This document shows, one piece after another, positions 26,213-43,198 of a DNA stretch of 43,828 bases. The position numbers were made by a program, and so were the translations under genes. The first letter of the stretch is position 1. Every line of letters begins with the position of its first letter. A model generated the notes under the pieces. That model searched no databases. It was not told the DNA's origin and worked only from the letters and a program-made list of their open reading frames with translations. The DNA comes from Opitutaceae bacterium (lineage in GTDB: Bacteria; Verrucomicrobiota; Verrucomicrobiia; Opitutales; Opitutaceae), in the NCBI GenBank assembly GCA_027488595.1, contig JAIYBI010000240.1, positions 1 to 43,828 on the forward strand, given 5' to 3'.

Positions 26213-28345
26213 TTAGGCGGTTGGCACGAAGGGCCAGACTTTTGCATACCAGGCGAAGGCGGCGGCGGCCACGATGAGGATCAACAAGGTGACGAGCAGG
26301 GTGGAGCGTTTGCGGCGGGCGGCTTCCTTGTCCACGTAGGGATCGTTGAGGTCGAGCTTGCTGCCCTTAGGGAGGACTGCGCGCTCGGTGAGTTTGGTGC
26401 CGAAGGGGATGTTGATTTTGACGCGGCCGTTGATGGCCCAGCCGTTGGCTTCGAGAATGGGGCCGAGGTTGCGCTGGCGGAGTTTGAGCCAGGCGATCGC
26501 CATCGAGGGACCGGAGATGATAAGAATGATGCCCAACACTCCGAGCGGCATGTAAACGCCGAGACCGAGGAAGCCCGCGATGAGTCCGCCGAGCACGGTG
26601 CCCAAGGCACCTGCGGCGACGCCGAGGGCGGCGATGACGCCGACGTCGAACTTCTTGGGGGGAGTGGCGGCGGCGGCGGATTTATCGGCGTTGGCGGTCT
26701 TTTCGGCGGCGGCGGCGAGTTTGGCGTTGCTCTCGGCATCGGCGGCGGCGGCGCGCTTGGCGGCCTGCTCCTCGATCATACGCACAAACTTTTTGTAGGG
26801 GGAGAAGAAGGCCTGGCGGACGCTGATGGGGTTGTCCACGATGGCGGTGATGGCGGCGTCCCAGTCGCGGCCCTGGCGGTCGTAGAAAATGCCGTTGCGG
26901 CCGACGAAGAGGAAGTCGCTATCGCCCTGGGTAAAGCAGGCGGCGATCTTGCGCGGGGCGCAGCCGGCGCGGGTGAGGTCGCAGTAGGCGATGTAGGCCT
27001 TGCTCATGGCGGCGAGCGGGGCGGGGCCGGCGACGCCGATGCAGAACTCGGTGGAGCGGTTGTCGAGATAGAGTGTGCCGGCCTGGAAGGTCGCGGAGTA
27101 GGAGGGGGAGTAAAAGTCGAAGAAGTTGACGAAGTTGTGCAGCAGGGCGCGGAAGTCGCGGGTGTAGCGGAGGATTTTTTCGACCGAGGCGATGGCCGTG
27201 AACTCGGGCTCGAGGGATTTATCCTTGGTGATGAGGGCGGCGAGCTCGGCCTGCTGGTTGGCGGCGAGGATGGCTTTGACGCGATCAAGGCCGAGGGGCT
27301 CGACGGCGGCGCCGGCTTTGGCCCCACTCCAGGCGGCGAAGGCGGCGACTTTGGCCTTGAGGGCGGTCCACTCGGGCTCGGTGAGCTCGGTCTTGGCGGC
27401 GCCGAAAACGGGGGTGACTGCGGCGGCGTGCAGGGTGGCGAGGGCGGCGGCCCAGGCGGGGTTGACGGCGGCGAGGAGCGGGAGGGGCTGGCTGGCGGCG
27501 ATGCGGGCGAGGGGGAAGCCGGCGACCTCGGCGGCGGTGATGGAGAGATCCTTGGCGGCGAGGGCGAGATACTCGGTCTCGGAGCGGTTCAAGGCGGCGA
27601 GGGCGCGGGCATCGTAGGCGGCGAGGCGGGTGCGGGAGAAGTAGTCGTCCACCTTGGCGGAGACGGCATTCACGGCGGCAAGGGCGGCGGCGGTGCCGGC
27701 ACCGAGGGTAAGCACATCGGCGGAGGCGCCGGTGGCGCTCCAGGCGGCGAAGGCGGTGGCGTCGGCGTAGAAGGAGTCGATGCGGGCCTGATCAATGCCG
27801 GAGGCGCCGGAACGGTCGGTCACGCCGCCGTGGGTGGAGATGATTTGCGCGACGAGAAGCTTGAGGTCGGCGGCCTCGGCGGAGTCGGCGGTGATGATGC
27901 CGTCGCCGTTGAAGTGGGTGGAGGCAAAGAGGCGGACGGTGTCGGAGGCCTCGGCGAGGGTGATGGCGGAGGCGTCGGCCTTGCCGAGGGAGGCGAGGAT
28001 GCGTTTGGCGGAGGCGTGGGCGGCGAGGCCCTCGGGCTTGGCGGTGTTGAAGGCGGAGAGGGCGACGGAGTCGGAGTCTTTGAGGAGGACGCCGAGGTCG
28101 TTGAGGACAAGGGCGGACCAATCGATGGCTGAGAGGAGCTCGGGGACGCGGATGCGGCCGTCGTTGTCGGTATCGATGAGGGCGAGGGTTTTCTCGTCGA
28201 GCTCAAGGCCCTTAACCGGGCAGGAGAGGGCGACCCAGAGCTTCTGGTCGAGATGCTTGAGGTTGGCGAGGTCGGCGCCGGTTTCGAGAGCGACTTGGTC
28301 GAGGCCGCCGATGCGGTAGAATTTCCAGGTGTGGGGGGAGTTCAT
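26213..28345 (-). CDS. Conserved hypothetical membrane protein with EF-hand loop
   Basis: WKF.R.GG.DQV, LDQKLWVALSCP, EF-hand-like DTDNDGRIRVPE, GRNGIFYDR.G.DWDA, two C-terminal TMs, and LR.RNLGP.L.ANGWAIN. Confidence 0.8.
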   Translation of the reverse strand: MNSPHTWKFYRIGGLDQVALETGADLANLKHLDQKLWVALSCPVKGLELDEKTLALIDTDNDGRIRVPELLSAIDWSALVLNDLGVLLKDSDSVALSAFNTAKPEGLAAHASAKRILASLGKADASAITLAEASDTVRLFASTHFNGDGIITADSAEAADLKLLVAQIISTHGGVTDRSGASGIDQARIDSFYADATAFAAWSATGASADVLTLGAGTAAALAAVNAVSAKVDDYFSRTRLAAYDARALAALNRSETEYLALAAKDLSITAAEVAGFPLARIAASQPLPLLAAVNPAWAAALATLHAAAVTPVFGAAKTELTEPEWTALKAKVAAFAAWSGAKAGAAVEPLGLDRVKAILAANQQAELAALITKDKSLEPEFTAIASVEKILRYTRDFRALLHNFVNFFDFYSPSYSATFQAGTLYLDNRSTEFCIGVAGPAPLAAMSKAYIAYCDLTRAGCAPRKIAACFTQGDSDFLFVGRNGIFYDRQGRDWDAAITAIVDNPISVRQAFFSPYKKFVRMIEEQAAKRAAAADAESNAKLAAAAEKTANADKSAAAATPPKKFDVGVIAALGVAAGALGTVLGGLIAGFLGLGVYMPLGVLGIILIISGPSMAIAWLKLRQRNLGPILEANGWAINGRVKINIPFGTKLTERAVLPKGSKLDLNDPYVDKEAARRKRSTLLVTLLILIVAAAAFAWYAKVWPFVPTA

Positions 28346-30102: not shown

Positions 30103-31194
30103 TTACTTGGTCACGCCGAGGGCGGCGAGGGTCTCGTAGGTGAGACCGCCCTGGGGCAGGTTGTTGGCGGCCTGGAAGGAAGCGACGGCCTGCTGCGTGG
30201 ATTTGCCGTAGACGCCGTCAACCGCGCCGACGTTGAAGTTGCGGGAGTTGAGCTGGCTCTGGACATTGGCGATGACATCGGGGGTGACGTTCGTCGCGCA
30301 AAGGATGCGGCGCCACTCCATCTTGCTTCTGCCGGCGGCGACCTGGCGGGTGACGGTGCCGTATTCGGCGGGGATCACCTTCTTGTCCACGCGGGCGGGG
30401 CTGGTGACCTTTTGAACCTGCACCATTTTGTATTCGGCGGGGATCTGGATGGTTTTCACCTGGGCGGGCTGGTCAACGACGGTGCGCTTGACGGTCTCGT
30501 AGACGGCGGGAATCTGTTCCTCGCGGGTGGTGGCGGCGGAGACGAGCACGTTGCGGCTCACGGTGTCGTAGACAGCGGGGTCGGTGACATAGCACATGAT
30601 CTCGCCGGTCTCGCCTTCGAGTTTCTGGAGGGAGTCCGCACCCTTCTTCCAGTAGCTGCGCTCGGGCTTCACAAGAACGCGCTCGGTGCGGGTCTCGTAG
30701 ACGGCGGCGACGGGGATCTGGCGGGTGTAGGCGGGGGATTTGAGGACGCGCTCCTCGATCTCTTTATAGGTGGCGGGAATGATTTCCTGACGCTCGCTGG
30801 CGCCGCGAACCATGACGCGTTCCTCGACGGTGCTGAGCACGGCGGGAACCTCGATCAGCTCGAAACCCTCTTCGCGTTTCACGACGCGCTCGGTGACGGA
30901 CTCCATGGCGGGAGTCACGAGGACGCGGGTGTAGCACTCGCCGGGTTTGGCGTTGGGCGGGAACAGGGCGTTGTTGTCGGCGGCGGGGGCGGCCACCGGG
31001 CGGGTGGGCGCGACGGCGGGCGCGGGCTCGGCCGGGGCGGCCTCGGCGGCGGGGGCGGTGGTTTCCTTGTGCTTTAGGGAGCGGAAGTGCCGCATGATAT
31101 TCGGGTCAACCTGAGCGAACAGGCTGCCGGCACCGGCGAAAGCCAGGGCGAGGACGAGGGATGCTTTGAGAGCAGGGCTGGACAGGGTTTTCAT
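30103..31194 (-). CDS. Secreted protein with PAxY-repeat stalk and C-terminal peptidoglycan-binding domain
   Basis: Signal peptide, PPNAKPGECY, repeated PA.Y.TV...V, and C-terminal VQ..L....F..G.VDG.YG..T..AV..FQ....L. Confidence 0.82.
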   Translation of the reverse strand: MKTLSSPALKASLVLALAFAGAGSLFAQVDPNIMRHFRSLKHKETTAPAAEAAPAEPAPAVAPTRPVAAPAADNNALFPPNAKPGECYTRVLVTPAMESVTERVVKREEGFELIEVPAVLSTVEERVMVRGASERQEIIPATYKEIEERVLKSPAYTRQIPVAAVYETRTERVLVKPERSYWKKGADSLQKLEGETGEIMCYVTDPAVYDTVSRNVLVSAATTREEQIPAVYETVKRTVVDQPAQVKTIQIPAEYKMVQVQKVTSPARVDKKVIPAEYGTVTRQVAAGRSKMEWRRILCATNVTPDVIANVQSQLNSRNFNVGAVDGVYGKSTQQAVASFQAANNLPQGGLTYETLAALGVTK

Positions 31195-31407: not shown

Positions 31408-32169
31408 TCAACGCGGCGGGCGCGGGCCTTTTACGACGCGAGTGTCGCAAAGGTAGTCGTGCAGCGTGCGTTTTTCGTCGTCGAAGGCGGCCATGACGTA
31501 GCCGGAGAGGAAGAGTATCCAGCTGAGTTGCTCGCCGAAGTAGCGCAGGATGATTTTCCCTGCGCCGACGGGCGATCCATCGGCCCGAACCACGCGCAAG
31601 CCGAGGATACGTTTGCCGGGTGTCGCTTCAAAGCGGCGGATGAAATACACCGAGAACCAGATGGCGATTCCGGCGTTTACGACCGACATGATGCCTTGGG
31701 CGCGCAAAAAGCCCCGCCAGTCGGGCGGCACTGGGATGGCGCCGTCGTAGAAAAGGGCTGAGAATGCCTCGGCGAGCAGCAGTCCGATGCCGACCAGCAG
31801 GATGAAATCAATCATCTTGGCGGCGAAGCGCGCCCAGAATCCGCCGAATGGGGGGTGTGCGGTCCGCGGAGCGGCCTGCGTGGCGCGTTCGCGTGCCGCG
31901 GCCCTCTCCTCGGCCCAAGCGCGGAGTTCCTCGGCGTGAGTGGCATTGGCGGCACTCGTCTCACCGGCGGCCGGGAGGGGCGGAGGCATCGCGGGCAGCG
32001 ACGGCGGAACCTCCAACTCGGCGACATCCCCGGCGCGGCGCCAGTCGCTCAGGCCCGGGCGCCAGACCAGCGTGCCGGCCTGCACCATGCCGTCGCGGAT
32101 GCGTTCATCCAGCGTCTCCCGTTCAACCGGGCCGATGCGTTGACCTTCCTGCACGAAATACCATTTCAT
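31408..32169 (-). CDS. GYF_2 + RDD family membrane protein
   Basis: WY....G...GP....L......TLVW..G...W (GYF_2), plus GFW.RF.A..ID, TPGK..LGL.V and R.LHD....T.V (RDD). Confidence 0.9.
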   Translation of the reverse strand: MKWYFVQEGQRIGPVERETLDERIRDGMVQAGTLVWRPGLSDWRRAGDVAELEVPPSLPAMPPPLPAAGETSAANATHAEELRAWAEERAAARERATQAAPRTAHPPFGGFWARFAAKMIDFILLVGIGLLLAEAFSALFYDGAIPVPPDWRGFLRAQGIMSVVNAGIAIWFSVYFIRRFEATPGKRILGLRVVRADGSPVGAGKIILRYFGEQLSWILFLSGYVMAAFDDEKRTLHDYLCDTRVVKGPRPPR

Positions 32170-32283
32170 GTCCCGCACCGTGCCGGTCCGTGCGGCCAAG
32201 GCAACCGTGCAACGCGGCACCCGCTTGCAACGCATCCCGGCCTCGCCATGCGACGGCGGGACGGCCAACTTCGCGTCCCGACC

Positions 32284-33927
32284 ATGCGTGCATCCTCTCT
32301 TGTCCGCCCTGCCCTTGTCCTGTTGACGGGACTCGTTTTCGCCCTGTTCGCGACCGCCTGCCGGCCTCGCGAAACCCCCGTCGAAGCGGCGCGGGCGACG
32401 CAGACGCTGTTGTTGGGCAACGGCGCCGAGCCCGGCGACCTCGACCCGCAGCTCGCCACCGCGTTCACCGAGTTTAACATCATCATCGCGCTCGGCGAGG
32501 GGCTCACCGCGATTGACGAAGCCACCGGCGAACCGGTGCCGGCGGCGGCCGCGGGTTGGAGTGTATCCGCTGACGGACTACGTTACACCTTTCACCTCCG
32601 GCCCGAGGGACGCTGGTCGAATGGCGAGCCGCTCACGGCCGCTGATTTTGTTTTTTCTTACGAGCGCATCCTTCGGCCCGCCCTCGCCTCGGAATACGCC
32701 TACATGCTGTTCCCGATTCGCGGCGCCGAGGCTTTCAACACCGGTAAATCCACCGATTTCGGCACCGTGGGCGTAAGCGCGCCCGATGCACGCACGCTCG
32801 TCATCGAGCTTGCCTCTCCCACGCCTTATTTGCTGGCCGTCGCCGCTCACCAGGCCTGGTTTCCGGTGCATCCGCCGACGATTTTGAAGGCCGGTAAAAT
32901 AGACCAGCGCGGCACGGGTTGGACGCGACCGGAGAACTACGTCGGCAACGGCCCCTACCGCCTCGCGGTCTGGGCGCCCAACGACCGCATCGAGGTCGTG
33001 CGCCAGCCCCACCACTACTCGGACCCCGCCGTCGGGCCCAAGCGCGTCATCTTTTTTCCTACCGACAACATCCCCGCCGACGAGGCCGCCTACCGCGCCG
33101 GTCAGCGTCACGCCACTTACGACCTGTTGCCGGATCGCATCGCCGGATACCGGGCCGAGAAACCGTCGCCCCTGCGGGTGGATCCGCTGTTGGAGACCTA
33201 TTATCTGCGCTTCAACGTCACGCGTCCGCCCCTCGCCGATGTGCGCGTGCGCCGAGCCCTCGCCCTCGCGATTGATCGCGAGGCGATCGCCGCCTCGGTG
33301 CTGCAAGGCTCGCGCGTTGCCGCCTTCAATTATACCCCGCCCGGCACCGGCGGTTACGCGTGCGAGGCCCGGCAACCCCACGATCCCGCCGCCGCGCGCG
33401 AGTTGCTCGCCGCCGCCGGCTTCCCGAAGGGCGAGGGCTTCCCCCGGTTGGAACTCCTGCTCAACACCGATGCGATCAACACCACCATCCTCTCCGCCGT
33501 GCAGGCGATATGGAAACGCGAGCTCGGCATCGAGGTCACGCTCGTGGCCCAGGATTTCCGCGTTTATCTGGATTCGATGAAGGGCCTGCGCTACGACATC
33601 GCCCGTGCCCGCTGGATCGGAGACTACAACGACCCCAATACCTACCTCGACATGTTCCTGACCGGCGGTGGCAACAACCAGACCGGCTGGAGTTCCGCCG
33701 CCTATGATGCGCTCATCGCCCGCGCCGCCACCACCGCCGACCCGAACGCACGGTTTGCGGTCTTTCAGCAGGCCGAGCGACTCCTTCTCGAAGAGGCTCC
33801 CATCGCGCCGATTTTTTTCGGCGCCCGCACCCATCTGCTGCATCCCGATGTGGGCAGCTGGCACCCGTCCCTGCTCGGCGTGCGCCGTTACCAGACGCTG
33901 ACCTTGGCTCCCGGCCTCGGCCGATGA
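32284..33927 (+). CDS. oppA: Peptide ABC transporter substrate-binding lipoprotein (OppA family)
   Basis: Lipobox-like ATAC, EP..LDP, YTFHLR....WSNG.PLTA.DF, VGNGPY, RVRRAL.LAID and WIGDY.DP motifs. Confidence 0.88.
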   Translation: MRASSLVRPALVLLTGLVFALFATACRPRETPVEAARATQTLLLGNGAEPGDLDPQLATAFTEFNIIIALGEGLTAIDEATGEPVPAAAAGWSVSADGLRYTFHLRPEGRWSNGEPLTAADFVFSYERILRPALASEYAYMLFPIRGAEAFNTGKSTDFGTVGVSAPDARTLVIELASPTPYLLAVAAHQAWFPVHPPTILKAGKIDQRGTGWTRPENYVGNGPYRLAVWAPNDRIEVVRQPHHYSDPAVGPKRVIFFPTDNIPADEAAYRAGQRHATYDLLPDRIAGYRAEKPSPLRVDPLLETYYLRFNVTRPPLADVRVRRALALAIDREAIAASVLQGSRVAAFNYTPPGTGGYACEARQPHDPAAARELLAAAGFPKGEGFPRLELLLNTDAINTTILSAVQAIWKRELGIEVTLVAQDFRVYLDSMKGLRYDIARARWIGDYNDPNTYLDMFLTGGGNNQTGWSSAAYDALIARAATTADPNARFAVFQQAERLLLEEAPIAPIFFGARTHLLHPDVGSWHPSLLGVRRYQTLTLAPGLGR

Positions 33928-34004: not shown

Positions 34005-36923
34005 ATGACGCTGCCTCGCAGATCCGTCTCCGGTCCCCTGTATTTCCGTCCAAAGCTCGCTCTTGCGTTGCTTGCCCTTTTGGGAACCGTCCCCGCCTTC
34101 GCCCAAGTTACCATTCCGATCGCGAACCAGCTCGCCGAGGTTGAACTCAACCTCAAGGCCAAGAAACCCGCCGACGCCGCCAACCTGTTGGATGAGATAA
34201 TCAAGCGCGCCCAAGCCGGCGAAGCCCTTCCTTCGGGTCTCACTTTGGAGCGCCTGCTGCTCACCGCCGCCAACACCAATTTCCAATCGCAGCTCTACCC
34301 CCGCGCCGCCGAGCTCGGCGCCCTCATCGAAAAGCTCGACTCCGTCGGGCCGGCCGCCCTGGCCGAGGCCCGCATGATCCGCGGCCTCTCTCTCGCCCTT
34401 CAGCAGAAATATGCCGAGGCCATTCCGATTTTCAAAGCCGCCGAGGAGTCCATCACCTTCCGCGACAAGGCACTGCTTTACGGCGCGATGTCCGCCAACC
34501 AGGCCGGCCAGCTCCCAGTCGCCATCGAGACCTACAACCGCCTCCTCGCCACCTCCGCCCGCGATCGCGACTGGGCCGACGCCGCCCTCGCCTTGGTTGA
34601 TCTTCATGTGCGCGCCGGCAACGTTGCCGACGCCCGGCGCGGCCTTGGCCTTCTCCGTGGCAACCTCGCCCTGGTGGATAATCTCGCGGGGCTCAACATC
34701 CTCTCCCTCCAGCTCGGTGACGCCCTCATGAAAGCGGGCGACAATGCCGGTGCCCTCGCCGCCTTCCGCACCATCACCACGCGCGACGACCTCATCTCCG
34801 AACAGAAGAAGCGCAACGCCGGCCTTGAGCGCGCCCTCGCCCGCCTTCAGGCCATCACCCGCCCCTCCGCCACCGACTCCGACGCCATCCGCCGCCTCAA
34901 CTCCCGCCTCGAGCAAGCCAAGGCCTCCCTCGAGCAGATCGAGAAACTCCCCGGCTACGACGCCACCCTCCGCTACCGCCTCGCCTACACCTTCCAGGAG
35001 CGCGGCGGCGCGTGGGAGGCCGCCCTTCTCTACGAAGACCTGCTGGCCAACCACCCCGAATCAGCCGAGCGCGAGAACGCCTTCTTCGGGCTCGTCCGTT
35101 GCTACGCCGACACCGGCCGCTTCGAGAAAGTCCGCGAGTCCGTTGACCGCTTCACCCGCGCCTTTCCCGGTTCCAAGTTCGGCCCGCAGGCCCTTTACCT
35201 CGCCGCCATGGCGGCCGGCTCCCGCAACGACCTCGAGGGCCAGCTCACCTTCCTCGGCTTGGCGACGGACAACTACGCCGCCGGGGAACTCACCGAGCCG
35301 ATGCGCCTGATGCGCGCCAACGCCCTTTTTTCACTCAACCGCTACGCCGAGGCCAAGGAAACCGTCGTCGCCTACGCCAAGGATTTTCCCCAGGGCAAAT
35401 TCATTGAGGAGGCCCGCTACCTTGCCGCCATGGCCGATCTCGCCGAAGGCCGCTCCGGCGAGGCCGAGAAACAGATCATCGTCTACCTGAAAGACTTTCC
35501 CGAGGGCCGCTTCGTGCCCGACGCCCGCTACCGGCTCGCCGCCACCGCGTATTCGCGTGAGGACTACAAGACCTGCGCCGAGCTTTGTGTGAAGTGGCTC
35601 GCCGACTATCCCTCCGAGCAGCCCCAGCGCGGAGAGATCCACTCCCTCCACGCCGACGCGCTCGCCGGCCTCGGCAATATTTCCGAAGCCATCGTCGCCT
35701 ACCATGAGGCCCTGAACCTGCCGCTCTCCGACGAGCAGCTCGGCTACGTGCTCGACGAGCTCAACCGACACTACCAGGCCCGGCGCGAGTTCGACGCCGC
35801 CGTCGCCATGTGGGAGCAGTTCGCCGCCGAGAAACCCGACCACCCCTTCGTCATCAACGCCGCCTACTGGATCAGCCGCATCCGCAGCAAGGAGGGCAAG
35901 TTTGACGAGGCCCTCGAACTCGTCTCCCAAATCACCCGCCGCTACGTCAACGACCCCTCACGCGGCGATGTCGAGCGCCTCCTCGTCGAGATGGCCGCCA
36001 CCCTCGCCCGCCCGCCTCGCGTCAAGAAGGGCGAGCCCAAACCCGAGCCCATCCCCGAGGAGACCCTTTTCGCGCGCGTCAACCAGCTCATCCTCGTCGG
36101 CGACACCCGCAATAATCCCACCGCCCGGGCCCGTGCTTTGTTTGTCCAATCCGAGATCGCCTCCCTGCGCAAAAACGACGCGCTGCGCGACCAGCTCCTT
36201 GGCAAGATCGCGTCGAACTACGCGCCCGACCAACTGCCCCCAGGCATTCTCGGCAAGGTTGGCGACGCCATGCTCGCCCTCGGCCAGCCCGAGGTGGCCA
36301 AAAAGTTCTACGAGCAAATCATCACGGCGCACCCCAAGTCTGTTTTCGCCGACTTCGGTTACGTCGGCCTCGGTGACATCGCGCTGCTCGATGGCAATGG
36401 TGACGAGGCCCTCAACCGCTATAACGCCGCCATTGATGTTGCCGGCGCCCGCTTCAAGTTAAAGGAGGCGACGCTCGGCCGTGCACGCGCCTTCGCCCTC
36501 CTTGGCAAACTCGACTCCGCCCGCGAACTCTTCGAGCAGGTCGCCGGCAATCGTTCCTGGCGCGGCGAGGCCACCGCCGAGGCCCTTTACAATCTCGGCG
36601 AAATCGCCATCCGCCGCGGCACCCCGGACGATCTCGCCAAGGCTCAGGCGCATTACCAACGCGTTTACCTCTCCTATAAACGCTTTCCCGCCTGGGTTGC
36701 GAAGGCCTACATCCGCTCCGCCGAGACGTTTATCAAGCTGGGCCAGAAACAGGAAGCCAGCAACACCCTCGAACGCATGCTTACCTTCCGCGACCAGCTT
36801 CAATCTTACCCCGAATGGAAGGCCGCCTTGGATCTGAAAGCCACCGCCGGACTTCCCGCCGCCGCCTTCCCTCCCGAGCCTGCGGCTCCCGTCACCGCTG
36901 CCCCGACCCCCGCGAAATCATGA
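34005..36923 (+). CDS. Large exported tetratricopeptide-repeat protein
   Basis: Signal peptide ending AFA-Q, many TPR/CpoB-like helices (..FP.S...P.ALY, YP.....), and YQRVYL.Y...WVAKAY. Start uncertain. Confidence 0.85.
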   Translation: MTLPRRSVSGPLYFRPKLALALLALLGTVPAFAQVTIPIANQLAEVELNLKAKKPADAANLLDEIIKRAQAGEALPSGLTLERLLLTAANTNFQSQLYPRAAELGALIEKLDSVGPAALAEARMIRGLSLALQQKYAEAIPIFKAAEESITFRDKALLYGAMSANQAGQLPVAIETYNRLLATSARDRDWADAALALVDLHVRAGNVADARRGLGLLRGNLALVDNLAGLNILSLQLGDALMKAGDNAGALAAFRTITTRDDLISEQKKRNAGLERALARLQAITRPSATDSDAIRRLNSRLEQAKASLEQIEKLPGYDATLRYRLAYTFQERGGAWEAALLYEDLLANHPESAERENAFFGLVRCYADTGRFEKVRESVDRFTRAFPGSKFGPQALYLAAMAAGSRNDLEGQLTFLGLATDNYAAGELTEPMRLMRANALFSLNRYAEAKETVVAYAKDFPQGKFIEEARYLAAMADLAEGRSGEAEKQIIVYLKDFPEGRFVPDARYRLAATAYSREDYKTCAELCVKWLADYPSEQPQRGEIHSLHADALAGLGNISEAIVAYHEALNLPLSDEQLGYVLDELNRHYQARREFDAAVAMWEQFAAEKPDHPFVINAAYWISRIRSKEGKFDEALELVSQITRRYVNDPSRGDVERLLVEMAATLARPPRVKKGEPKPEPIPEETLFARVNQLILVGDTRNNPTARARALFVQSEIASLRKNDALRDQLLGKIASNYAPDQLPPGILGKVGDAMLALGQPEVAKKFYEQIITAHPKSVFADFGYVGLGDIALLDGNGDEALNRYNAAIDVAGARFKLKEATLGRARAFALLGKLDSARELFEQVAGNRSWRGEATAEALYNLGEIAIRRGTPDDLAKAQAHYQRVYLSYKRFPAWVAKAYIRSAETFIKLGQKQEASNTLERMLTFRDQLQSYPEWKAALDLKATAGLPAAAFPPEPAAPVTAAPTPAKS

Positions 36924-37750
36924 GTTCCCCGCGCCACCGTCTTTTCCTTTCGTTGGTCATCGGTCAGTGTGCATTGGCCGTTCTGCCTGCCGCCTTTGCC
37001 CAGCGCTACATCCTCAAGGACAACACCGCCCTCGCCGCCTCCGAAGTCACCCTCGGCTCCGGCGCACTCGTGCAACAGGTCGCCATCCCCGGCGGCGGCT
37101 CGTTCGAGCGTCGTTATCCGCTTGCCGACGTCGCACGTCTCGAGTTCCCCGAGCCCGAAGCCCTCGACGAAGCGGAAAAGCTCGTGGCCGCCGGCTCCGG
37201 CGCGGATGCGCTGAAGCTCATCGAGCCCATCTACCGCCAGTTTGCGCCATTTTCCAAAGTGGTCGGTTCACACTGGCCCCGCGCCGCCCAGCTCCGCCTT
37301 CAGGCCCTCCTTCTCGGCACCGACAACAGCGCGATCACTTCTTCCGCCCGTGAGCTGATGCAGAGCGGCCTCGGCCCCGATGTCACGGGCACCGCCAAGC
37401 TCGCCCTTGCCCAGCTCGACGCCCGCGCCGGCAAGGAAGCCCTCGCAAACGTGATGCTCGAGCAAATCGTTCGCGAGGCGACTCCGGCCGTTCAGGCCCG
37501 CGCCTGGCTGCTGCGCGGCGACCTCGCCGCCGCCCGCACCGCACATGTCGAGGCGCTTGAGTGTTACCTGCGCATCCCCGCTTTTTTCGGCACCATTGAC
37601 GAGCTCATGCCCGCCGCGCTCCTCGGCGCAGCCCGCGCTTACCAGGGCTACGGCGATAGCAGCCGGGCCGAACGCTCCGCCCTCGATTTGATAGATAACT
37701 ATCCCGCCACCCTTCAGGCCGCCCAGGCCAAGAAGGAGTTTAATCTCTGA
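36920..37750 (+). CDS. Exported TPR-like protein
   Basis: ATGA overlap, signal peptide (AFA-Q), small beta N-domain, then TPR helices (ALECYLRIP, L...YP). Confidence 0.75.
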   Translation: MSSPRHRLFLSLVIGQCALAVLPAAFAQRYILKDNTALAASEVTLGSGALVQQVAIPGGGSFERRYPLADVARLEFPEPEALDEAEKLVAAGSGADALKLIEPIYRQFAPFSKVVGSHWPRAAQLRLQALLLGTDNSAITSSARELMQSGLGPDVTGTAKLALAQLDARAGKEALANVMLEQIVREATPAVQARAWLLRGDLAAARTAHVEALECYLRIPAFFGTIDELMPAALLGAARAYQGYGDSSRAERSALDLIDNYPATLQAAQAKKEFNL

Positions 37751-37819
37751 TTTGCTGTTTCGCTCTCCATCCTCTTCCACCCATCACCACCCGCTTCTCT
37801 TAAACTCAAAACTCAGCCC

Positions 37820-38611
37820 ATGAAACGCGTCCTCGCCCTTGTCTCACTCCTCGCCGCCTCGCCGCTTGCCTTGCTCGCCCAGGCCGCCGCTCCCGCCACC
37901 GTGAAGAAAGTCAGTCTTCTTCAGGAACTCTCCTCGCCCTTCATCCTCCCGCTCTGGGCCTGCTCCGGCCTTATCGTCTACCTTGTCATTGATCTCTATC
38001 TTAAGAGCGGTTCCAAGCAGTTCGTCCCCCCCGCGGATCTCGATATCCTTCGCACTTACTTCCGCGCCGGCGATTACCACGGGGCCTACGCCTGGACCGC
38101 CAAAAACACCGGCTCCGTCGCCGCTGTTGCTCACGCCGGCATCAAGCACGCCACCGGTGGCAAGACCGCATCCGAGGATGCCATGGGCGCCGCCATCATA
38201 GGCGAGAACTCGAAGTTCCAAAACAAGATCGCCTACCTCTCCGTCATCGGCGTCATCGCGCCCATGGTCGGCCTTACCGGCACCGTGGTCGGCATGATCC
38301 AGGCCTTCGCGGCGATGGGCGCCGCCGGTGCCGCCGACCCCTCCAAACTCTCCGGCGCCATCGGCCACGTGCTGCACGCCACCGCCGCCGGTCTCGCCGT
38401 CGCCATCCCGGCCTTCGTATTCTACTACCTCCTGCGCAACCGCGTCTCCCACCAGATCCACGAGCTCTCGCTCGCGATCAACGACCTTTTCCGTTGCTAC
38501 CCCTACGAGCACATGAAGGACGTCTCCTTCGAGGGTGGCGAACACGTCGCCGCCACCCCGAACTGGATCACCGGCGCCGCCCCCGTGGACGCTCCCGCCG
38601 CCCGGGCCTGA
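37820..38611 (+). CDS. exbB: MotA/TolQ/ExbB proton-channel protein
   Basis: IAPMVGLTGTVVGMIQAF and ATAAGLAVAIPA TM motifs. Confidence 0.92.
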   Translation: MKRVLALVSLLAASPLALLAQAAAPATVKKVSLLQELSSPFILPLWACSGLIVYLVIDLYLKSGSKQFVPPADLDILRTYFRAGDYHGAYAWTAKNTGSVAAVAHAGIKHATGGKTASEDAMGAAIIGENSKFQNKIAYLSVIGVIAPMVGLTGTVVGMIQAFAAMGAAGAADPSKLSGAIGHVLHATAAGLAVAIPAFVFYYLLRNRVSHQIHELSLAINDLFRCYPYEHMKDVSFEGGEHVAATPNWITGAAPVDAPAARA

Positions 38612-38665
38612 GTTGCGCGCCGCGCATCCCTTAAACTTCAACTTTAACCTCAACCCTTTACCAAC

Positions 38666-39091
38666 ATGGCAGGCGGTGGTGGCGGTGGCGACGGCGAGCC
38701 CGAATTTCAAATCGCGCCGATGATAGATGTTCTCCTGGTGCTGCTCATTTTTTTCATGAGCATCGCCACCTCGTCGGTGGCGCGCTACGATCCTGGCATC
38801 CAGGTGCCCGTCGCCACCGATGCGAATAAGAAAGAGGACTCCGAGGGCGAGCTGGTCTTCAACGTGGCTTGGAAGTCCGCCACCCTCACCGCGGTCACCA
38901 GCTTTGAGGAAGCCGTCGTGCAACCCGAAGACACGATTGGCACTCTTTCCGCCCGCAAAAAAGCCAATCCCCAGGTCCGCGTGCTCGTGCGCGCCGACGG
39001 CGAGACTCCCGTCCGCTACATCAACGCCATCGTCAACGCCGCCGCCCAGGCCGGCATCGTGGACGTCACCTTCGCCACCGTCGCACGTTAA
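38666..39091 (+). CDS. exbD: ExbD/TolR family protein (copy 1)
   Basis: IAPMIDVLLVLLIFFM with the conserved Asp, and VLVRAD. Confidence 0.92.
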   Translation: MAGGGGGGDGEPEFQIAPMIDVLLVLLIFFMSIATSSVARYDPGIQVPVATDANKKEDSEGELVFNVAWKSATLTAVTSFEEAVVQPEDTIGTLSARKKANPQVRVLVRADGETPVRYINAIVNAAAQAGIVDVTFATVAR

Positions 39092-39094
39092 AAA

Positions 39095-39136
39095 CCGATC
39101 GTTCCGATTAATCCGATCAGACCGATTCGCCCAATC
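39095..39136. repeat. 9-bp-period CCGAT tandem repeat (x5)
   Basis: ccgatcgtt ccgattaat ccgatcaga ccgattcgc ccaatc between the two exbD genes. Confidence 0.7.
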
Positions 39137-39144
39137 CCTTTTTC

Positions 39145-39591
39145 ATGAAACTCCCCGTCCAAGCCTCCAACCCCGACGTCGGTTTCCAGATCGCGCCCAT
39201 GATTGACGTGGTGTTCGTGATCCTCGTGTTTTTCATGTCTTTGGCCGCTCAGATCCGCATCGAGCAGATTCTCCAGACCAAGCTCCCCGGCATGTCGGTC
39301 GCCGGAACGCCCACCGAGTTTGTGGACGAGCAGATCCTTCAAGTTTCCGAGGATGGCGAGGTCACGCTCAATGACGAGGTTTACGACTCTCCCACCAGCC
39401 GTGATCTGCCCCAGCTCACCAGCACCCTCGGGCAGTTGAAGGCCTCCAGCGACGCCGCCAAATCCAAGCTCGTCGTCACTCTTATCAGCAACCCCGACTC
39501 GCCTTACTACCGCACCATTGACGTGCTCAACTCCCTCGCCCTTGCGGGTGTCACCAACGTGACTTTCACCGCCGACGCCGAAGAGCTGTAA
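39145..39591 (+). CDS. exbD: ExbD/TolR family protein (copy 2)
   Basis: IAPMIDVVFVILVFFM and Y...IDVLN.L..AG..NVTF. Confidence 0.92.
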   Translation: MKLPVQASNPDVGFQIAPMIDVVFVILVFFMSLAAQIRIEQILQTKLPGMSVAGTPTEFVDEQILQVSEDGEVTLNDEVYDSPTSRDLPQLTSTLGQLKASSDAAKSKLVVTLISNPDSPYYRTIDVLNSLALAGVTNVTFTADAEEL

Positions 39592-39612
39592 GCCCATCTT
39601 CACTCGTTCCCC

Positions 39613-41175
39613 ATGTCCGATCTTCCCGATTCCCCCGCGCCAGCCGACGAGACTCCGGCGCAGCACATCGCCGCCGTTCAGAAGAAGAAGAATTTCTACC
39701 TGCGCATCACCTCGAGCATGCCTCTGTTCATCACGGTGATCGTGCACGTCGTGTTCATCGGAGCGGCAGCCGCCATCGTGGTGCAGCAGGCCGGCGGCGG
39801 CAAAAAGAAGACCTTCGAGGCCAGCAATCAGTCGGAAAACGCCAACAAGCAGGTCGAGCACCGCCTTCAGGTTGCCCGCCGTGGCGGCGCGAGCAGCGCT
39901 TCCCAAAGCCCCGTCTCCGCCAACCGTATCTTTTCCACCTCGGAGAACGCCCTCCAAATGCCCGCCATGCCCGACCTGCCCTCGATGGGGGCGGGCGGCT
40001 TTGGCGGTTTCGGCGGCATGGGCTCGGGTGTCGGCCTCGGCGCCGGGTCCGGCATGTCCACTTCCCTCGGCGGCGGCACCGGCCTCGGCGGCCGCGGCTT
40101 CATGTCGCTCAGCTTTCTCGGCTCCACCACCCAGAACGTCCGCAATATCGTCTTTGTGGTGGATACCAGCGCCGAGATCATGGAGCCCCGCAAAGGCGGC
40201 TTCCGGGCCTTCTCGATCATCCGCGAGGAGATCATGCGCCTCGTCGGACGCCTCCCCCCGTCGTCCAAGTTCAATGTCATGCTTTTTGGATACAACTCTG
40301 GCGACGAGAATAACGCCGTTTCGTTAAACGCATTCAAACGCGAGCTCTCCCCCGCCACGAGCGATGTTAAAAAAGAGTTCTTTGAGTGGATGACGCCGGT
40401 CAACACCACGTTGGGCAGATTCGGCCCCACGTCAGCCGCCAGCCGTATCGTTCTCCGTGCCCAGCCTCTCCCGGAATCCGCTGGTGTGGACCCGCTCTTT
40501 CTTCCCCCCTACTGGGCTCGCGCTGTGCAAACCGCGCTCGAACAGCGGCCCGATACCATCTACGTCATCACCGCCAGCGGCGGCCGCCCGCGTAACCGGG
40601 TGAGCGAAGCAGTCTTGGCGACCCGCCGCACCGCAGAAGAAAAGGAAAAAGAGGACTTTGCCCAAGAGATGAAAAAGATCGGTCTAGATGCTGCTGCCGT
40701 CCGTGGCGCTCGCGATCGCGCTTTAGACAAGGCTTCTGCAGAGCTGGAAGCCCTCAACCGCAGGTTTGTAGCCGAGAAAAAGGATCCCGTCATCTTACGC
40801 ACAATCAGTGACCTTGAGCGGGCCGACGTCCAGGCGGCACTCAGGAAAAACGGTGCCAATCTCCGCTTCGACACCACCGGTTGGGCGGATAAGGATGGCA
40901 GACGCATCAACGTCCCTTCCACGTGGGTATCAACGGTGGAGGATGCCACCTGGAACGATTTTTACTCCCACTATGCACGCGTTCAGCGTGCGTTGGTGCC
41001 GGAGCGCCCGTCGCTGAACCTGTTCCTGTTTGTCGGCCCGGATGAGAAGCCAGCCGCTGCGATCACGAACCTGACCGCAGCCGCCAAGCGCAACGGCGGC
41101 AGCTTCCAACTCCTCACCACCAAGCGCCTCGAAGAGATCAAGGCCAAGGAAGACGCCGCCGCTGCGAAAAACTAG
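39613..41175 (+). CDS. Membrane-anchored protein: TonB/TolA-like TM, Gly/Pro linker, degenerate vWA-like domain
   Basis: TM with TVIVH, Gly-rich linker, and IVFVVDTS, FNVMLF, ALEQRPDTIYVIT and AAKRNGGSF vWA-like elements. Confidence 0.7.
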   Translation: MSDLPDSPAPADETPAQHIAAVQKKKNFYLRITSSMPLFITVIVHVVFIGAAAAIVVQQAGGGKKKTFEASNQSENANKQVEHRLQVARRGGASSASQSPVSANRIFSTSENALQMPAMPDLPSMGAGGFGGFGGMGSGVGLGAGSGMSTSLGGGTGLGGRGFMSLSFLGSTTQNVRNIVFVVDTSAEIMEPRKGGFRAFSIIREEIMRLVGRLPPSSKFNVMLFGYNSGDENNAVSLNAFKRELSPATSDVKKEFFEWMTPVNTTLGRFGPTSAASRIVLRAQPLPESAGVDPLFLPPYWARAVQTALEQRPDTIYVITASGGRPRNRVSEAVLATRRTAEEKEKEDFAQEMKKIGLDAAAVRGARDRALDKASAELEALNRRFVAEKKDPVILRTISDLERADVQAALRKNGANLRFDTTGWADKDGRRINVPSTWVSTVEDATWNDFYSHYARVQRALVPERPSLNLFLFVGPDEKPAAAITNLTAAAKRNGGSFQLLTTKRLEEIKAKEDAAAAKN

Positions 41176-41182
41176 TTTCATC

Positions 41183-41572
41183 ATGCCCGCCGTCACTCGC
41201 CTCCTTCACACCCGTTACCGCGTCAACGACCTCGCCGCTTCGGTGAAGTTTTACACCGAGGCTCTCGGCCTCACCGTCTCCCGCCGCCACACCTCGCCGC
41301 GGGGCGCGCAGCTCGTGTTTCTAACCACGCCGAACACCGCCGAGGAGATCGAGCTTTGCCAGATGCCCGCCGGCGCCGAGCCGGTGAAGGTGCAGTCTGA
41401 CCTCACCCACCTTGCCTTCGAGGTGGAGAACCTGGAGGCCTTCACCGCCGCGGCCGCCGCCAAGGGTTATCCGCTCTCCGACGGCCCCACCAAGACTGGC
41501 AGTGGCAGCATCATCGCCTTCCTTGACGCCCCCGAAGGCTACGAGATCGAGCTCATCCAAAAGGCCCGCTGA
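41183..41572 (+). CDS. gloA: VOC/lactoylglutathione lyase family protein
   Basis: LLHTR.RV.DL..S..FY...LG, IEL, HLAF.V and F...P.GY.IEL motifs. Confidence 0.8.
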   Translation: MPAVTRLLHTRYRVNDLAASVKFYTEALGLTVSRRHTSPRGAQLVFLTTPNTAEEIELCQMPAGAEPVKVQSDLTHLAFEVENLEAFTAAAAAKGYPLSDGPTKTGSGSIIAFLDAPEGYEIELIQKAR

Positions 41573-41635: not shown

Positions 41636-43198
41636 ATGCGTTTTATCCGAACACTGGGGTGTTGCGTTGGGTTGCTGGCGGTCGGCCTCGCCGGCTGCGC
41701 CAAGAAACCTGAGGAGGCGCCGCCATCAAAGACGCCCGCGATCCCCGTCAGTGCGCCACTCGTCGCCGCGCCGGAGCGCAGCGCGCATTTCGATGCGGTC
41801 AACCGCCACCTCGAACTCGGCGGCACGCTCTACGGTTATGTGGATATTGACGGCGACGTGCTGAAACTTGCCGCGGTGTTGCGCCAGTTTGTCGTGCAGG
41901 CGGCCGCCCAGCAACCGCAGGCCGCCGCGTTTATCCCGAAAGACTTTGGACCAATTTTTCAGGACCTCGGCCTTACCGATGTGACCGCGCTCGGCCTGAG
42001 CTCCGTGCAGGCGGCGGACGGAACCTTCCGCAACCGCGTATTCATCGCCACCCCGGGCGGGCGGCATGGTTTGCTCGCCGGGCTCGGCGGCCCTCCCGCG
42101 CCTTTTGCCGCCCCGCTGGTCGCGCCGGCGGATGCCGACTTCGTGTTTGAATCCGAGCTGGACACCCCGGCGGTGTATTCTGCCGTGCGGGCGGTGGTGG
42201 CGCGGCTGGTGGGCGAGCCGGCGGCGGGCTTTTTCGAGGCGAAACTCAAGGTGGCTGACCCGAAGACCGGCCTTGTTCCGCTGGATTTGATCAACGGCCT
42301 GAAGGGTCGGGTCTGCGTCGTCGCGAAGGCTGACGAGACGCGCACGTTTCAGCCCTCGCCCGAGCTTACCCTGCCCGCCTTCGACTTGCTGGTGCGCATC
42401 GAGGGCGTGGGCCGGGTCCTGGAGCCCGCGCTCGCCAAAGTGCCCGGTATCAAGAAAGCCACGACGCCCGCCGGCGTGACGATCTACACTTCGAACGATC
42501 CGGTGCCGAAAATCGAGTGGACGCCCGAGCTGCGCATTGAGGGCGATGTGCTCACCCTGGTCACCAGCGCGGCCTTCGGCGTGCCGGGCGGGGAAAAACT
42601 TTCGAGCAACCCGGCCTTTAAACAGGCGCTCGCCGCCCTCGGTGAAACAGGCAACGGGCTCACTTATGTCAGTCCTGCGCTGAGTTCACGTATCCAGCGA
42701 ATCGCGACTCTCAACCCCAGCCTCGACGCCAGCCAGCAGCAGACCCTCGCGTTCATTTTGACTCTGCTCCCGCGCGGCGATGCGCCGCTCGTCTCGGTGC
42801 GCCAGAACCTGCCCGACGGCGTGCTCATCCGCTCGCACTGGAGCGCTTCGCACAAGGCCAACCTGATGTTTGCCAACCCCGGCGTGGTGGTGACGACCGG
42901 CCTGGTGGCGGCGATGGCGATCCCGGCGTTTCAGAAGGTGCGCACGGCTTCGCAGCAAAAGGCGGTGATGAACAACATCCGCCAGCTCGCGGCGGCGGCG
43001 GATCAGTATTTTCTTGAGACCGGCAAGACCGTCTGCGGCTACCGTGACTTGGTCGGCAACGGACCCAACCAATACATCCGCGCCCTGAGCCCGGTGGCCG
43101 GCGAAGACTACACGAAGTTGCTCTTCCGGCAGGGTCAGCCGCAGATCACGGTCCTGATGCCCGATGGCAGCAAGGTGACTTACGACTGGAACAAGTGA
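41636..43198 (+). CDS. Lipoprotein with C-terminal type IV pilin-like domain
   Basis: Lipobox LAGC. C-terminal GLVAAMAIPAFQKVRTASQQKAVMNNIRQLAAAADQYFLE. Confidence 0.72.
   Translation: MRFIRTLGCCVGLLAVGLAGCAKKPEEAPPSKTPAIPVSAPLVAAPERSAHFDAVNRHLELGGTLYGYVDIDGDVLKLAAVLRQFVVQAAAQQPQAAAFIPKDFGPIFQDLGLTDVTALGLSSVQAADGTFRNRVFIATPGGRHGLLAGLGGPPAPFAAPLVAPADADFVFESELDTPAVYSAVRAVVARLVGEPAAGFFEAKLKVADPKTGLVPLDLINGLKGRVCVVAKADETRTFQPSPELTLPAFDLLVRIEGVGRVLEPALAKVPGIKKATTPAGVTIYTSNDPVPKIEWTPELRIEGDVLTLVTSAAFGVPGGEKLSSNPAFKQALAALGETGNGLTYVSPALSSRIQRIATLNPSLDASQQQTLAFILTLLPRGDAPLVSVRQNLPDGVLIRSHWSASHKANLMFANPGVVVTTGLVAAMAIPAFQKVRTASQQKAVMNNIRQLAAAADQYFLETGKTVCGYRDLVGNGPNQYIRALSPVAGEDYTKLLFRQGQPQITVLMPDGSKVTYDWNK

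What the first reader, a model, noticed from the sequence alone, without database searches (positions are those of the whole stretch)
34005..41175. TPR-TPR-ExbB-ExbD-ExbD operon ending in a TonB-like anchor fused to a vWA domain: candidate uncharacterised PMF-driven envelope machine
Seen: six tightly packed co-directional genes. They encode two exported TPR proteins (ATGA-coupled), one ExbB/TolQ, two different ExbD/TolR paralogues that both keep the essential TM Asp (PMID), and a last protein with one N-terminal TM carrying T-x-x-x-H (TVIVH). That protein continues with a Pro/Gly-rich linker and a vWA-like domain. Established: S/T-xxx-H is the motor-coupling motif of TonB/TolA anchors, and heterodimeric ExbD pairs with TPR partners occur in non-transport motors such as Myxococcus AglRQS-Glt. 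No TonB C-terminal domain, TonB-dependent receptor, TolB or Pal is in the window. Inference: the motor pulls on periplasmic TPR scaffolds through a vWA 'grip' rather than on a TonB box. This could be a distinct energised system for envelope remodelling, secretion or surface motility.
Basis: partly seen in the sequence, partly recalled or inferred. Interest (0 to 1): 0.78.

Follow-up and report, generated by a model that had tools for sequence, protein, structure and literature searches.

The report
MUL1-like proton motor with vWA arm
Six adjacent genes encode a predicted proton-driven membrane motor, two likely exported scaffold proteins related to the Akkermansia mucin-uptake proteins Mul1A and Mul1B, and a TonB-like arm tipped with a von Willebrand A domain; this kind of operon was proposed from genomes in 2025, and it likely powers uptake of large sugar polymers.

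Summary
The six-gene operon is real and conserved: 30 of 49 related stretches keep the same gene order. It is not an undescribed kind. Williams-Jones et al. 2025 (PMC12204202) proposed 'vWA force transducers' behind TPR, tolQ-like and two tolR-like genes in PVC bacteria, function unknown. This scan also noted such operons on other DNA.

What adds value is a functional link. Five of the six genes are homologous to the Akkermansia locus that I identify, by gene counting, as MUL1, reported to import mucin. The genome also holds a MUL2-like pilin/PilM/secretin locus. A Mul2A-like gene occurs in 95 of 97 genomes carrying this operon's large TPR protein, against 32 of 157 non-Akkermansiaceae genomes lacking it (kin are not independent).

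Best reading: a dedicated proton motor that likely energises uptake of large glycans through the MUL2-type apparatus. It is also weakened: related arms carry PA14 or helical-toroid heads instead, and this vWA head lacks a canonical MIDAS.

The parts
34005..36923 (+). TPR1, 972-aa TPR scaffold with signal-like N-terminus; homologue of the Akkermansia 1077-aa protein identified as Mul1A (Amuc_0544)
   Evidence: Pfam/NCBIfam TPR and YbgF hits; hhalign to the A. muciniphila protein P0405 99.6%, 861 columns; profile-profile score 500, E 1.7e-57, against 252 and 45 for control TPRs; best hit of the MUL1-clade profile in this genome
36920..37750 (+). TPR2, 276 aa: signal-like N-terminus, small beta domain (29-75) and TPR helices; homologue of the protein identified as Mul1B (Amuc_0543)
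   Evidence: AF2 pLDDT 93; YbgF TPR Z 18.2; hhalign to the Mul1B clade 98.8%, E 6.7e-17, including the beta domain; a similar gene fills the TPR1-exbB gap in related loci
37820..38611 (+). ExbB/TolQ-type motor subunit; S49 in TM1, T155 and T188 in the pore
   Evidence: PF01618 E 2e-26; alignment to TolQ; shares a 97* branch with MUL1-type ExbB, apart from TonB- and Tol-linked ExbB (quick tree)
38666..39091 (+). ExbD1, TM Asp21
   Evidence: PF02472 E 2.4e-18; tree, where the ExbD1 rows fall in two groups
39145..39591 (+). ExbD2, TM Asp21
   Evidence: PF02472 E 1.9e-15; all 25 second-position ExbD, MUL1-type included, form one 97* branch (quick tree)
39613..41175 (+). TonB-like arm, 520 aa: TM 39-57 with T41-x3-H45, Gly/Ser linker 61-172, vWA head 178-520 with degenerate MIDAS and a helical insert
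   Evidence: H45 in 77 of 77 close and 82 of 90 diverse homologues; single copy in this genome

Best explanation
The six genes are predicted to build a dedicated proton-driven motor with a TonB-like vWA-tipped arm and two exported TPR scaffolds, which likely energises uptake of large glycans or glycoproteins across the outer membrane, probably together with a MUL2-type pilin/secretin apparatus encoded elsewhere. Steps: (1) Five ExbB enclose an ExbD1-ExbD2 heterodimer whose two Asp21 face the T155/T188 ring. The residues are shown; the stoichiometry is inferred from Ton/Tol structures. (2) The arm's TM docks on ExbB TM1 through T41/H45 and S49. The conservation and joint loss of these residues are shown; the docking is inferred. 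(3) A short motif after the TM (around the conserved F68) would bind the ExbD pair like a D-box, and the roughly 110-residue linker would carry the pull into the periplasm (inferred). (4) TPR1 and TPR2 would form a scaffold that holds glycan-degrading enzymes, as reported for Mul1A, and links the motor to the pilus/secretin (inferred). (5) The vWA head is one of several exchangeable tips (vWA, PA14, toroid; shown). It would engage the cargo or the scaffold without a canonical metal site; its ligand is unknown.
For: Homology to the locus identified as MUL1 holds for five genes. The identification rests on protein names, on the gene order GH2-mreB-rne-asnC-TPR-TPR-exbD-exbD-exbB and on published tags: Amuc_0539 galactosidase, 0540 MreB, 0543 Mul1B, 0544 Mul1A, 0546 biopolymer transporter. 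mul1A is called a mucin transport gene (PMC12570417), and nine CAZymes were reported to associate with Mul1A. This genome has a MUL2-like locus. A Mul2A-like gene is found in 95 of 97 genomes with a strong TPR1 match; outside the family that holds Akkermansia the counts are 87 of 89 against 32 of 157. Within the window's family they are 6 of 6 against 1 of 21. Stand-alone arm genes lie in GH5/GH38/GH92/GH125 clusters in 3 of 3 loci of one Rariglobus genome. Some related arms carry carbohydrate-binding PA14/GLEYA heads. ExbB TM1 Ser is kept in 45 of 46 window-type ExbB and in 0 of 10 MUL1-type; the arms read from genomes with the MUL1-type motor lack the His.
Against: Identity to the Akkermansia proteins is only 14-16%, and the gene order differs. 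The Akkermansia locus has no adjacent arm, and no vWA-headed arm of this family was found in 5 of 5 Akkermansia genomes searched. The primary MUL1 paper was not held, so its phenotype is taken second-hand. Amuc_0546 is reported higher in soy medium than on mucin. Mul2A does not imply the operon: 32 genomes outside that family have it without a strong TPR1 match, and none of the stretches fetched from six of them held the operon. Four genomes with the operon lacked a Mul2A match (G204, G496, G203, G140). PilM (256 of 301) and secretins (28 of 28) occur regardless. The Mul2A profile was built from operon-bearing genomes, and kin are not independent. Glycan enzymes near stand-alone arms versus near operons: 6 of 12 against 3 of 17, p = 0.11. 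The His/Ser loss is one evolutionary event, with His-less exceptions L077 and L089.
Confidence: 0.5

Rival explanations
1. The motor powers assembly, movement or secretion through the MUL2-type pilus/secretin, for example export or surface display of enzymes. Loss of polymer uptake would then be an indirect effect.
For: Same co-occurrence with Mul2A. Mul1A associates with CAZymes, some predicted to be outside the cell. Operon-bearing genomes of the window's family have more pilin N-termini (median 26.5 against 12; 3 genera against 12). Amuc_0543 is enriched in extracellular vesicles.
Against: ExbB/ExbD arms with this topology pull inward in Ton and Tol (PMC12905483 passages). Mul2A occurs without the operon.
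Confidence: 0.22
2. It is a Tol-like envelope-maintenance machine in which CpoB/BamD-like TPR proteins are moved by the arm.
For: Both TPR proteins resemble YbgF/CpoB and BamD. Operon flanks are mostly housekeeping genes.
Against: The genome has a separate tolQ-tolR-tolA-like locus, a PD40 protein and an OmpA/Pal-like protein. The operon was not found in 21 of 26 other genomes of the family. YbgF-like TPR similarity is generic.
Confidence: 0.12
3. It drives surface motility like Myxococcus Agl-Glt, as the 2025 paper speculated.
For: Heterodimeric TolR-like pair, TPR scaffolds and a vWA domain, all paralleled in Agl-Glt.
Against: In Agl-Glt the arms end in TonB-CTD-like domains and the vWA protein is a separate surface adhesin (title of a cited paper). 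No other conserved gene family travels with the operon. Akkermansia is non-motile (recalled, no call).
Confidence: 0.08
4. It is an ordinary Ton motor serving the genome's scattered TonB-dependent receptors.
For: The genome has 14 receptor matches over the Pfam cut-off. One of 17 operon loci had a receptor gene nearby, on the opposite strand.
Against: The arm has no TonB C-terminal domain. A canonical exbB-exbD-exbD-tonB locus exists on another contig, and its ExbB falls outside this operon's branch.
Confidence: 0.05

Closest known systems
vWA force transducers beside TolQR-like motors, Tichowtungia type (Williams-Jones et al. 2025, Mol Biol Evol, PMC12204202, section 8)
   Same: [quoted passage not shown]
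   Different: The section and legend read name one TPR gene; here two are conserved. This head has a degenerate MIDAS and a helical insert. The passages read make no link to MUL1 or to glycan uptake and suggest gliding.
Akkermansia muciniphila mucin utilization locus 1 (MUL1: Mul1A Amuc_0544, Mul1B Amuc_0543, ExbB/ExbD)
   Same: Homologous large TPR, small beta-domain TPR, ExbB and ExbD pair; a MUL2-like partner locus in the same genome.
   Different: Order exbB-exbD-exbD-TPR-TPR with no arm gene beside it. ExbB lacks the TM1 Ser, and the scattered arms lack the His and carry PA14 or toroid heads. Identity is 14-16%. The substrate here is unknown.
Ton (ExbB-ExbD-TonB) and Tol-Pal (TolQ-TolR-TolA)
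   Same: Motor residues (Asp, two Thr, TM1 Ser) and the first half of the SHLS motif.
   Different: vWA head instead of a TonB/TolA C-terminal domain; two different ExbD; no receptor, TolB or Pal conserved beside it.
Myxococcus Agl-Glt gliding machinery (PMC11761067)
   Same: Heterodimeric TolR-like pair and periplasmic TPR scaffolds gripped by a membrane-anchored arm in the published model.
   Different: GltG/GltJ end in TonB-CTD-like domains; no further conserved partner genes here.

Membership tests
vWA force transducers (Tichowtungia type, PMC12204202) | N-terminal TM with the SHLS Ser and His | tested here: met
   T41-x3-H45; His in 77 of 77 and 82 of 90 homologues. The Leu and last Ser positions are A52 and V56.
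vWA force transducers (Tichowtungia type, PMC12204202) | Disordered linker of about 100 residues | tested here: met
   Residues 61-172, pLDDT mostly <50, Gly/Ser-rich
vWA force transducers (Tichowtungia type, PMC12204202) | C-terminal vWA fold instead of TonB/TolA CTD | tested here: met
   VIA Z 15.4, rmsd 2.5, 163 aligned to ITIH1 vWA; the list is filled by vWA chains; no TonB_C hit
vWA force transducers (Tichowtungia type, PMC12204202) | Downstream of TPR, tolQ-like and two heterologous tolR-like genes | tested here: met
   Window; 30 of 49 related stretches
vWA force transducers (Tichowtungia type, PMC12204202) | Sequence homology to the Tichowtungia seed protein | tested here: inconclusive
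   No protein named Tichowtungia came up. The profile finds P0175, named VWFA protein of Kiritimatiella glycovorans, at E 1.9e-32; the supplement lists both organisms under Kiritimatiellota.
vWA force transducers (Tichowtungia type, PMC12204202) | Predicted docking of the TM His on the motor, and a motor box | not tested
   No complex was folded (tool not available). Indirect only: joint loss of ExbB Ser and arm His; F68 nearly invariant.
Akkermansia MUL1 | Mul1A homologue | tested here: met
   hhalign E 1.7e-57 over 904 columns; best hit of the Mul1A-clade profile in this genome, E 6.9e-25, next 0.0012. The identity of the Akkermansia gene with Amuc_0544 is inferred by gene counting.
Akkermansia MUL1 | Mul1B homologue | tested here: met
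   hhalign 98.8%, E 6.7e-17, including the N-terminal beta domain; controls align only in TPR parts. The Mul1B-clade HMM alone found no hit in this genome.
Akkermansia MUL1 | ExbB and ExbD of the same lineage | tested here: met
   ExbB 97* branch and ExbD2 97* branch, both quick trees on rows mostly chosen by TPR linkage; the ExbD1 rows are not one group
Akkermansia MUL1 | Same gene order (exbB-exbD-exbD-TPR-TPR, no arm) | tested here: not met
   The window has TPR-TPR-exbB-exbD-exbD-arm
Akkermansia MUL1 | Required for mucin or glycan import | not testable with these tools
   Needs mutants and labelled substrate
Ton system | TonB C-terminal domain on the arm | tested here: not met
   The head folds as vWA; no PF03544 or PF13103 hit
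Tol-Pal system | TolA CTD with tolB and pal in the locus | tested here: not met
   No such family conserved among 49 stretches; none in 80 of 172 flank genes scanned; a tolA-like locus lies elsewhere
Canonical metal-binding vWA | MIDAS (DxSxS ... T ... D) | tested here: not met
   DTSAE at 184-188 and ITAS at 319-322; DxSxS plus the last Asp in 0 of 77 close and 7 of 90 diverse homologues

The most novel reading that the evidence does not exclude
The 2025 'vWA force transducer' operons and Akkermansia MUL1 are one family: a proton-driven polymer-import machine spread across Verrucomicrobiota that works through the MUL2 pilus/secretin instead of SusC/D receptors. This operon shows the arm that MUL1 lacks, and scattered arm genes with swappable heads (vWA, PA14, toroid) set the substrate range.
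Probability: 0.4. Interest if true: 0.8.

Novelty: new member of a known kind. Interest (0 to 1): 0.5.

Why it matters
How Verrucomicrobiota take up mucin and complex algal or plant glycans is an open question. If this operon is the free-living counterpart of MUL1, it gives the unexplained 2025 transducer class a job. It also names the missing force-transmitting arm of the Akkermansia mucin importer as specific scattered genes that can be knocked out. And it argues against the published view that MUL1 is a gut- and mucin-specific adaptation (PMC13174399). As a gene arrangement alone it is already in print and common.

Tried and rejected
Expression: no RNA holder listed. Davey et al. 2023, the primary MUL1 paper: not held. 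Supplements: no annotation of Amuc_0540-0544 in PMC11790493 (7 of 19 files not searched) and none of Amuc_0542-0547 in PMC8079684; bioRxiv supplements are closed and may list the Mul1A-associated enzymes. No solved relative of TPR1 beyond generic TPR proteins, and Foldseek gave only weak hits for both models. The Atlas search with homologue P0109 returned unnamed Verrucomicrobiota and vWA clusters only. The promoter and terminator scan was at chance level. Secretin number and PilM presence do not track the operon. Enrichment of glycan enzymes beside stand-alone arms was not significant (p = 0.11, with different E cut-offs). PATR repeats are also higher in operon-bearing genomes (median 68 against 17.5), so lifestyle or lineage may confound the pilin count. 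The idea that Mul2A-positive, operon-negative genomes hide a diverged operon was not borne out at the 8 stretches fetched from six of them, which held a three-gene exbB-exbD-TPR paralogue or lone TPR genes. Neighbouring SBP5, glyoxalase, RDD/GYF and pilin-like genes were rejected as parts because they are not conserved beyond near kin. The careful ExbB tree did not finish; only quick trees are cited. A print link between MUL1 and the vWA transducers was not found.


Full report
Observation. The six genes lie on the + strand at the stated coordinates, with an ATGA overlap and gaps of 69, 54, 53 and 21 bp. Named close relatives are Opitutaceae and other Verrucomicrobiota. Family scans give TPR repeats for 34005-36923, MotA/ExbB for 37820-38611, ExbD for both small genes, and only a sub-threshold vWA hit (E 0.004) for 39613-41175. 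An AlphaFold model of the last protein is confident over residues 178-520, and its structural matches are vWA domains (ITIH1, Z 15.4, rmsd 2.5, 163 aligned). The second gene folds as a small beta domain plus TPR helices. ExbB T155/T188 align with TolQ T145/T178, which a review calls essential (PMC12905483, passages).

Conservation. The arm family was found in 97 of 301 genomes of the phylum and in 5 of 26 other genomes of the window's family. Of 49 fetched stretches, 30 show TPR1, exbB, exbD, exbD and arm in this order (two of them are the same sequence), 15 hold a stand-alone arm, 2 are cut by contig ends, 1 is rearranged and 1 was an extension without a hit. A TPR2-like gene fills the gap before exbB. 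No other family travels with the operon beyond near kin. Among 80 of 172 called flank genes from 17 loci there was one TonB-dependent receptor, on the opposite strand, and no TolB or Pal. The window's genome has separate exbB-exbD-exbD-tonB and tolQ-tolR-tolA-like loci, 14 receptor matches over the cut-off, a PD40 protein and an OmpA/Pal-like protein. This motor is therefore most simply read as dedicated to its own arm.

Prior description. Williams-Jones et al. [quoted passage not shown] They model the His docking on the motor, report no phenotype and speculate on gliding. The window meets every sequence-level feature I could test. I could not align it to the Tichowtungia protein itself; the nearest named link is a Kiritimatiella glycovorans VWFA protein (E 1.9e-32). 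The scan's index lists 118 earlier findings with these words in at least 113 genomes.

Link to Akkermansia MUL1. I recalled that MUL1 has TPR and ExbB/ExbD genes and tested it. Stretches whose proteins are named Akkermansia carry exbB-exbD-exbD-TPR(1077/1078 aa)-TPR(343-354 aa) next to GH2, mreB, rne and asnC genes. Published tags place a galactosidase at Amuc_0539 (PMC11790493, supplement head rows), MreB at 0540 and a biopolymer transporter at 0546 (PMC11480725, passages), Mul1A at 0544 (PMC12570417, passages), and Mul1B at 0543 with ExbD/B as expected MUL1 parts (PMC13174399, supplement passages). Counting genes makes the two TPR genes Mul1A and Mul1B; this step is inferred. The TPR1 profile aligns to the Mul1A clade over 904 columns (score 500, E 1.7e-57), against 252 and 45 for control TPR proteins from other ExbB loci, and the Mul1A-clade profile's best hit in this genome is TPR1 (E 6.9e-25, next 0.0012). 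TPR2 aligns to the Mul1B clade including the beta domain (98.8%, E 6.7e-17), although the Mul1B-clade HMM alone found no hit in the genome. In quick trees, MUL1-type ExbB share a 97* branch with the window's ExbB, apart from TonB- and Tol-linked ExbB (62 rows). All 25 second-position ExbD form one 97* branch, while the first-position ExbD split in two (57 rows). Davey et al. 2023 was not held. Its results reach me through others: mul1A is called a mucin transport gene, and pili, intracellular 'mucinosomes' and nine Mul1A-associated CAZymes are reported (bioRxiv 10.1101/2024.03.27.586211, passages). PMC13174399 (first part of the main text) reports no MUL1 synteny in aquatic Akkermansiaceae. 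I found the exbB-exbD-exbD-TPR order in three other genera of the same family code, habitat unknown (L091, L096, L109).

The arm is modular. Akkermansia has no arm beside this locus. In 5 of 5 genomes there are scattered genes with a weakly related TM and linker (E 1e-3 to 4e-7) whose heads are PA14/GLEYA or alpha/alpha-toroid; such heads also occur beside window-type operons (L095, L097, L102). The TM1 Ser of ExbB, which contacts the SHLS Ser and His in Ton and Tol structures, is kept in 45 of 46 window-type ExbB and in 0 of 10 MUL1-type (of 60 rows, 4 from other loci were set aside). The arms read from genomes with the MUL1-type motor lack the His, whereas arms from two genomes of that family that have the window-type operon keep it. 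This is one event, with two His-less exceptions (L077, L089), but it fits the docking model and points to those scattered genes as the missing MUL1 arms. It also weakens the idea that vWA is the obligatory grip on the TPR proteins.

Outer-membrane partner. Earlier scan notes on Planctomycetota suggested secretins, so I tested MUL2. An Akkermansia stretch was confirmed as MUL2 by matches to PDB Amuc_1102 and Amuc_1100. The window's genome has a homologous PilM-like to secretin run on contig C554 (29% identity) and a Mul2A-like gene on C274. PilM (256 of 301) and secretins (28 of 28) are near-universal and uninformative; Mul2A is not. In the window's family it was found in 6 of 6 operon-bearing genomes and 1 of 21 others. 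Across 301 genomes of the class it was found in 95 of 97 with a TPR1 match at E <= 1e-50. Leaving out the 55 genomes of the family that holds Akkermansia, whose Mul1A scores low, the counts are 87 of 89 against 32 of 157. Caveats: TPR1 is a proxy for the operon; one search scored only two candidates per genome (a re-test of 32 negatives found none missed); the Mul2A profile came from operon-bearing genomes; kin are not independent. The relation is one-way, and 4 of 13 further operon-bearing genomes had no Mul2A match.

Glycan context. Three stand-alone arms of one Rariglobus genome sit among GH5, GH38, GH92, GH125 and acetylesterase genes. In a wider set the contrast was 6 of 12 stand-alone loci (104 of 152 genes scanned) against 3 of 17 operon loci, p = 0.11. 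This is a hint only. Amuc_0546 is reported higher in soy than in mucin medium, which does not fit a mucin-induced importer.

Mechanism and verdict. Shown: the genes, their order, the folds, the conserved motor residues, homology to the Akkermansia locus, head swapping, and co-occurrence with Mul2A. Inferred: 5:2 stoichiometry, TM docking, D-box-like binding, a TPR1-TPR2 scaffold, coupling to the MUL2 apparatus, and glycan import as the job (0.5). The rivals are energised secretion or pilus work (0.22), envelope upkeep (0.12), gliding (0.08; Agl-Glt model from PMC11761067 passages) and an ordinary Ton role (0.05). The vWA-TPR contact is open because no complex could be folded. The operon is a new member of a kind already proposed in print. 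The MUL1 link was not found in print, but earlier scan notes made it for other genomes; a search of those notes for the Mul2A co-occurrence returned nothing. Interest 0.5.

Noticed in passing
window 31984-33927 (+): Peptide-type ABC solute-binding protein (SBP_bac_5) directly upstream on the same strand; kept nearby only in near relatives.
   Followed up: partly
window 41183-41572 (+): Glyoxalase I-like gene 7 bp after the arm; also near it in 7 related stretches.
   Followed up: partly
window 41636-43198 (+): 520-aa protein without a Pfam hit, with a lipoprotein-like N-terminus and a pilin/GspG-like segment near its C-terminus (residues 417-464, weak NCBIfam hits).
   Followed up: no
window 26213-28345 (-): 710-aa protein with only a weak EF-hand hit, a long helical body and C-terminal TM segments; a similar gene is in L004.
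   Followed up: no
window 30103-31194 (-): Exported protein with repeated Val/Glu/Lys-rich segments and a C-terminal peptidoglycan-binding domain.
   Followed up: no
L066:5329-7830 (-): An arm fused to an N-terminal Ser/Thr protein kinase domain and placed upstream of TPR1; a kinase gene also lies next to the operon in L076.
   Followed up: partly
L058:4228-17893: One locus with three arms (two single-vWA, one 781 aa) and two TPR1 copies; L057 has two tandem arms; L007 has a second arm copy that is split across frames.
   Followed up: no
L116, L117, L017, L195, L198-L202: A second widespread three-gene module, exbB-exbD-large TPR (810-1035 aa), distantly related to TPR1, present in Akkermansia, in this genome (C312) and in genomes without the operon.
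   Followed up: partly
L093, L097: Operons with three ExbD genes instead of two.
   Followed up: no
L151:4739-9883 (-): In an operon-negative genome of the window's family, the PilM-secretin locus is shorter and diverged (secretin ORF 664 aa from ATG against 933-937; PilM about 21% identical), and no Mul2A-like gene was found in that genome.
   Followed up: partly
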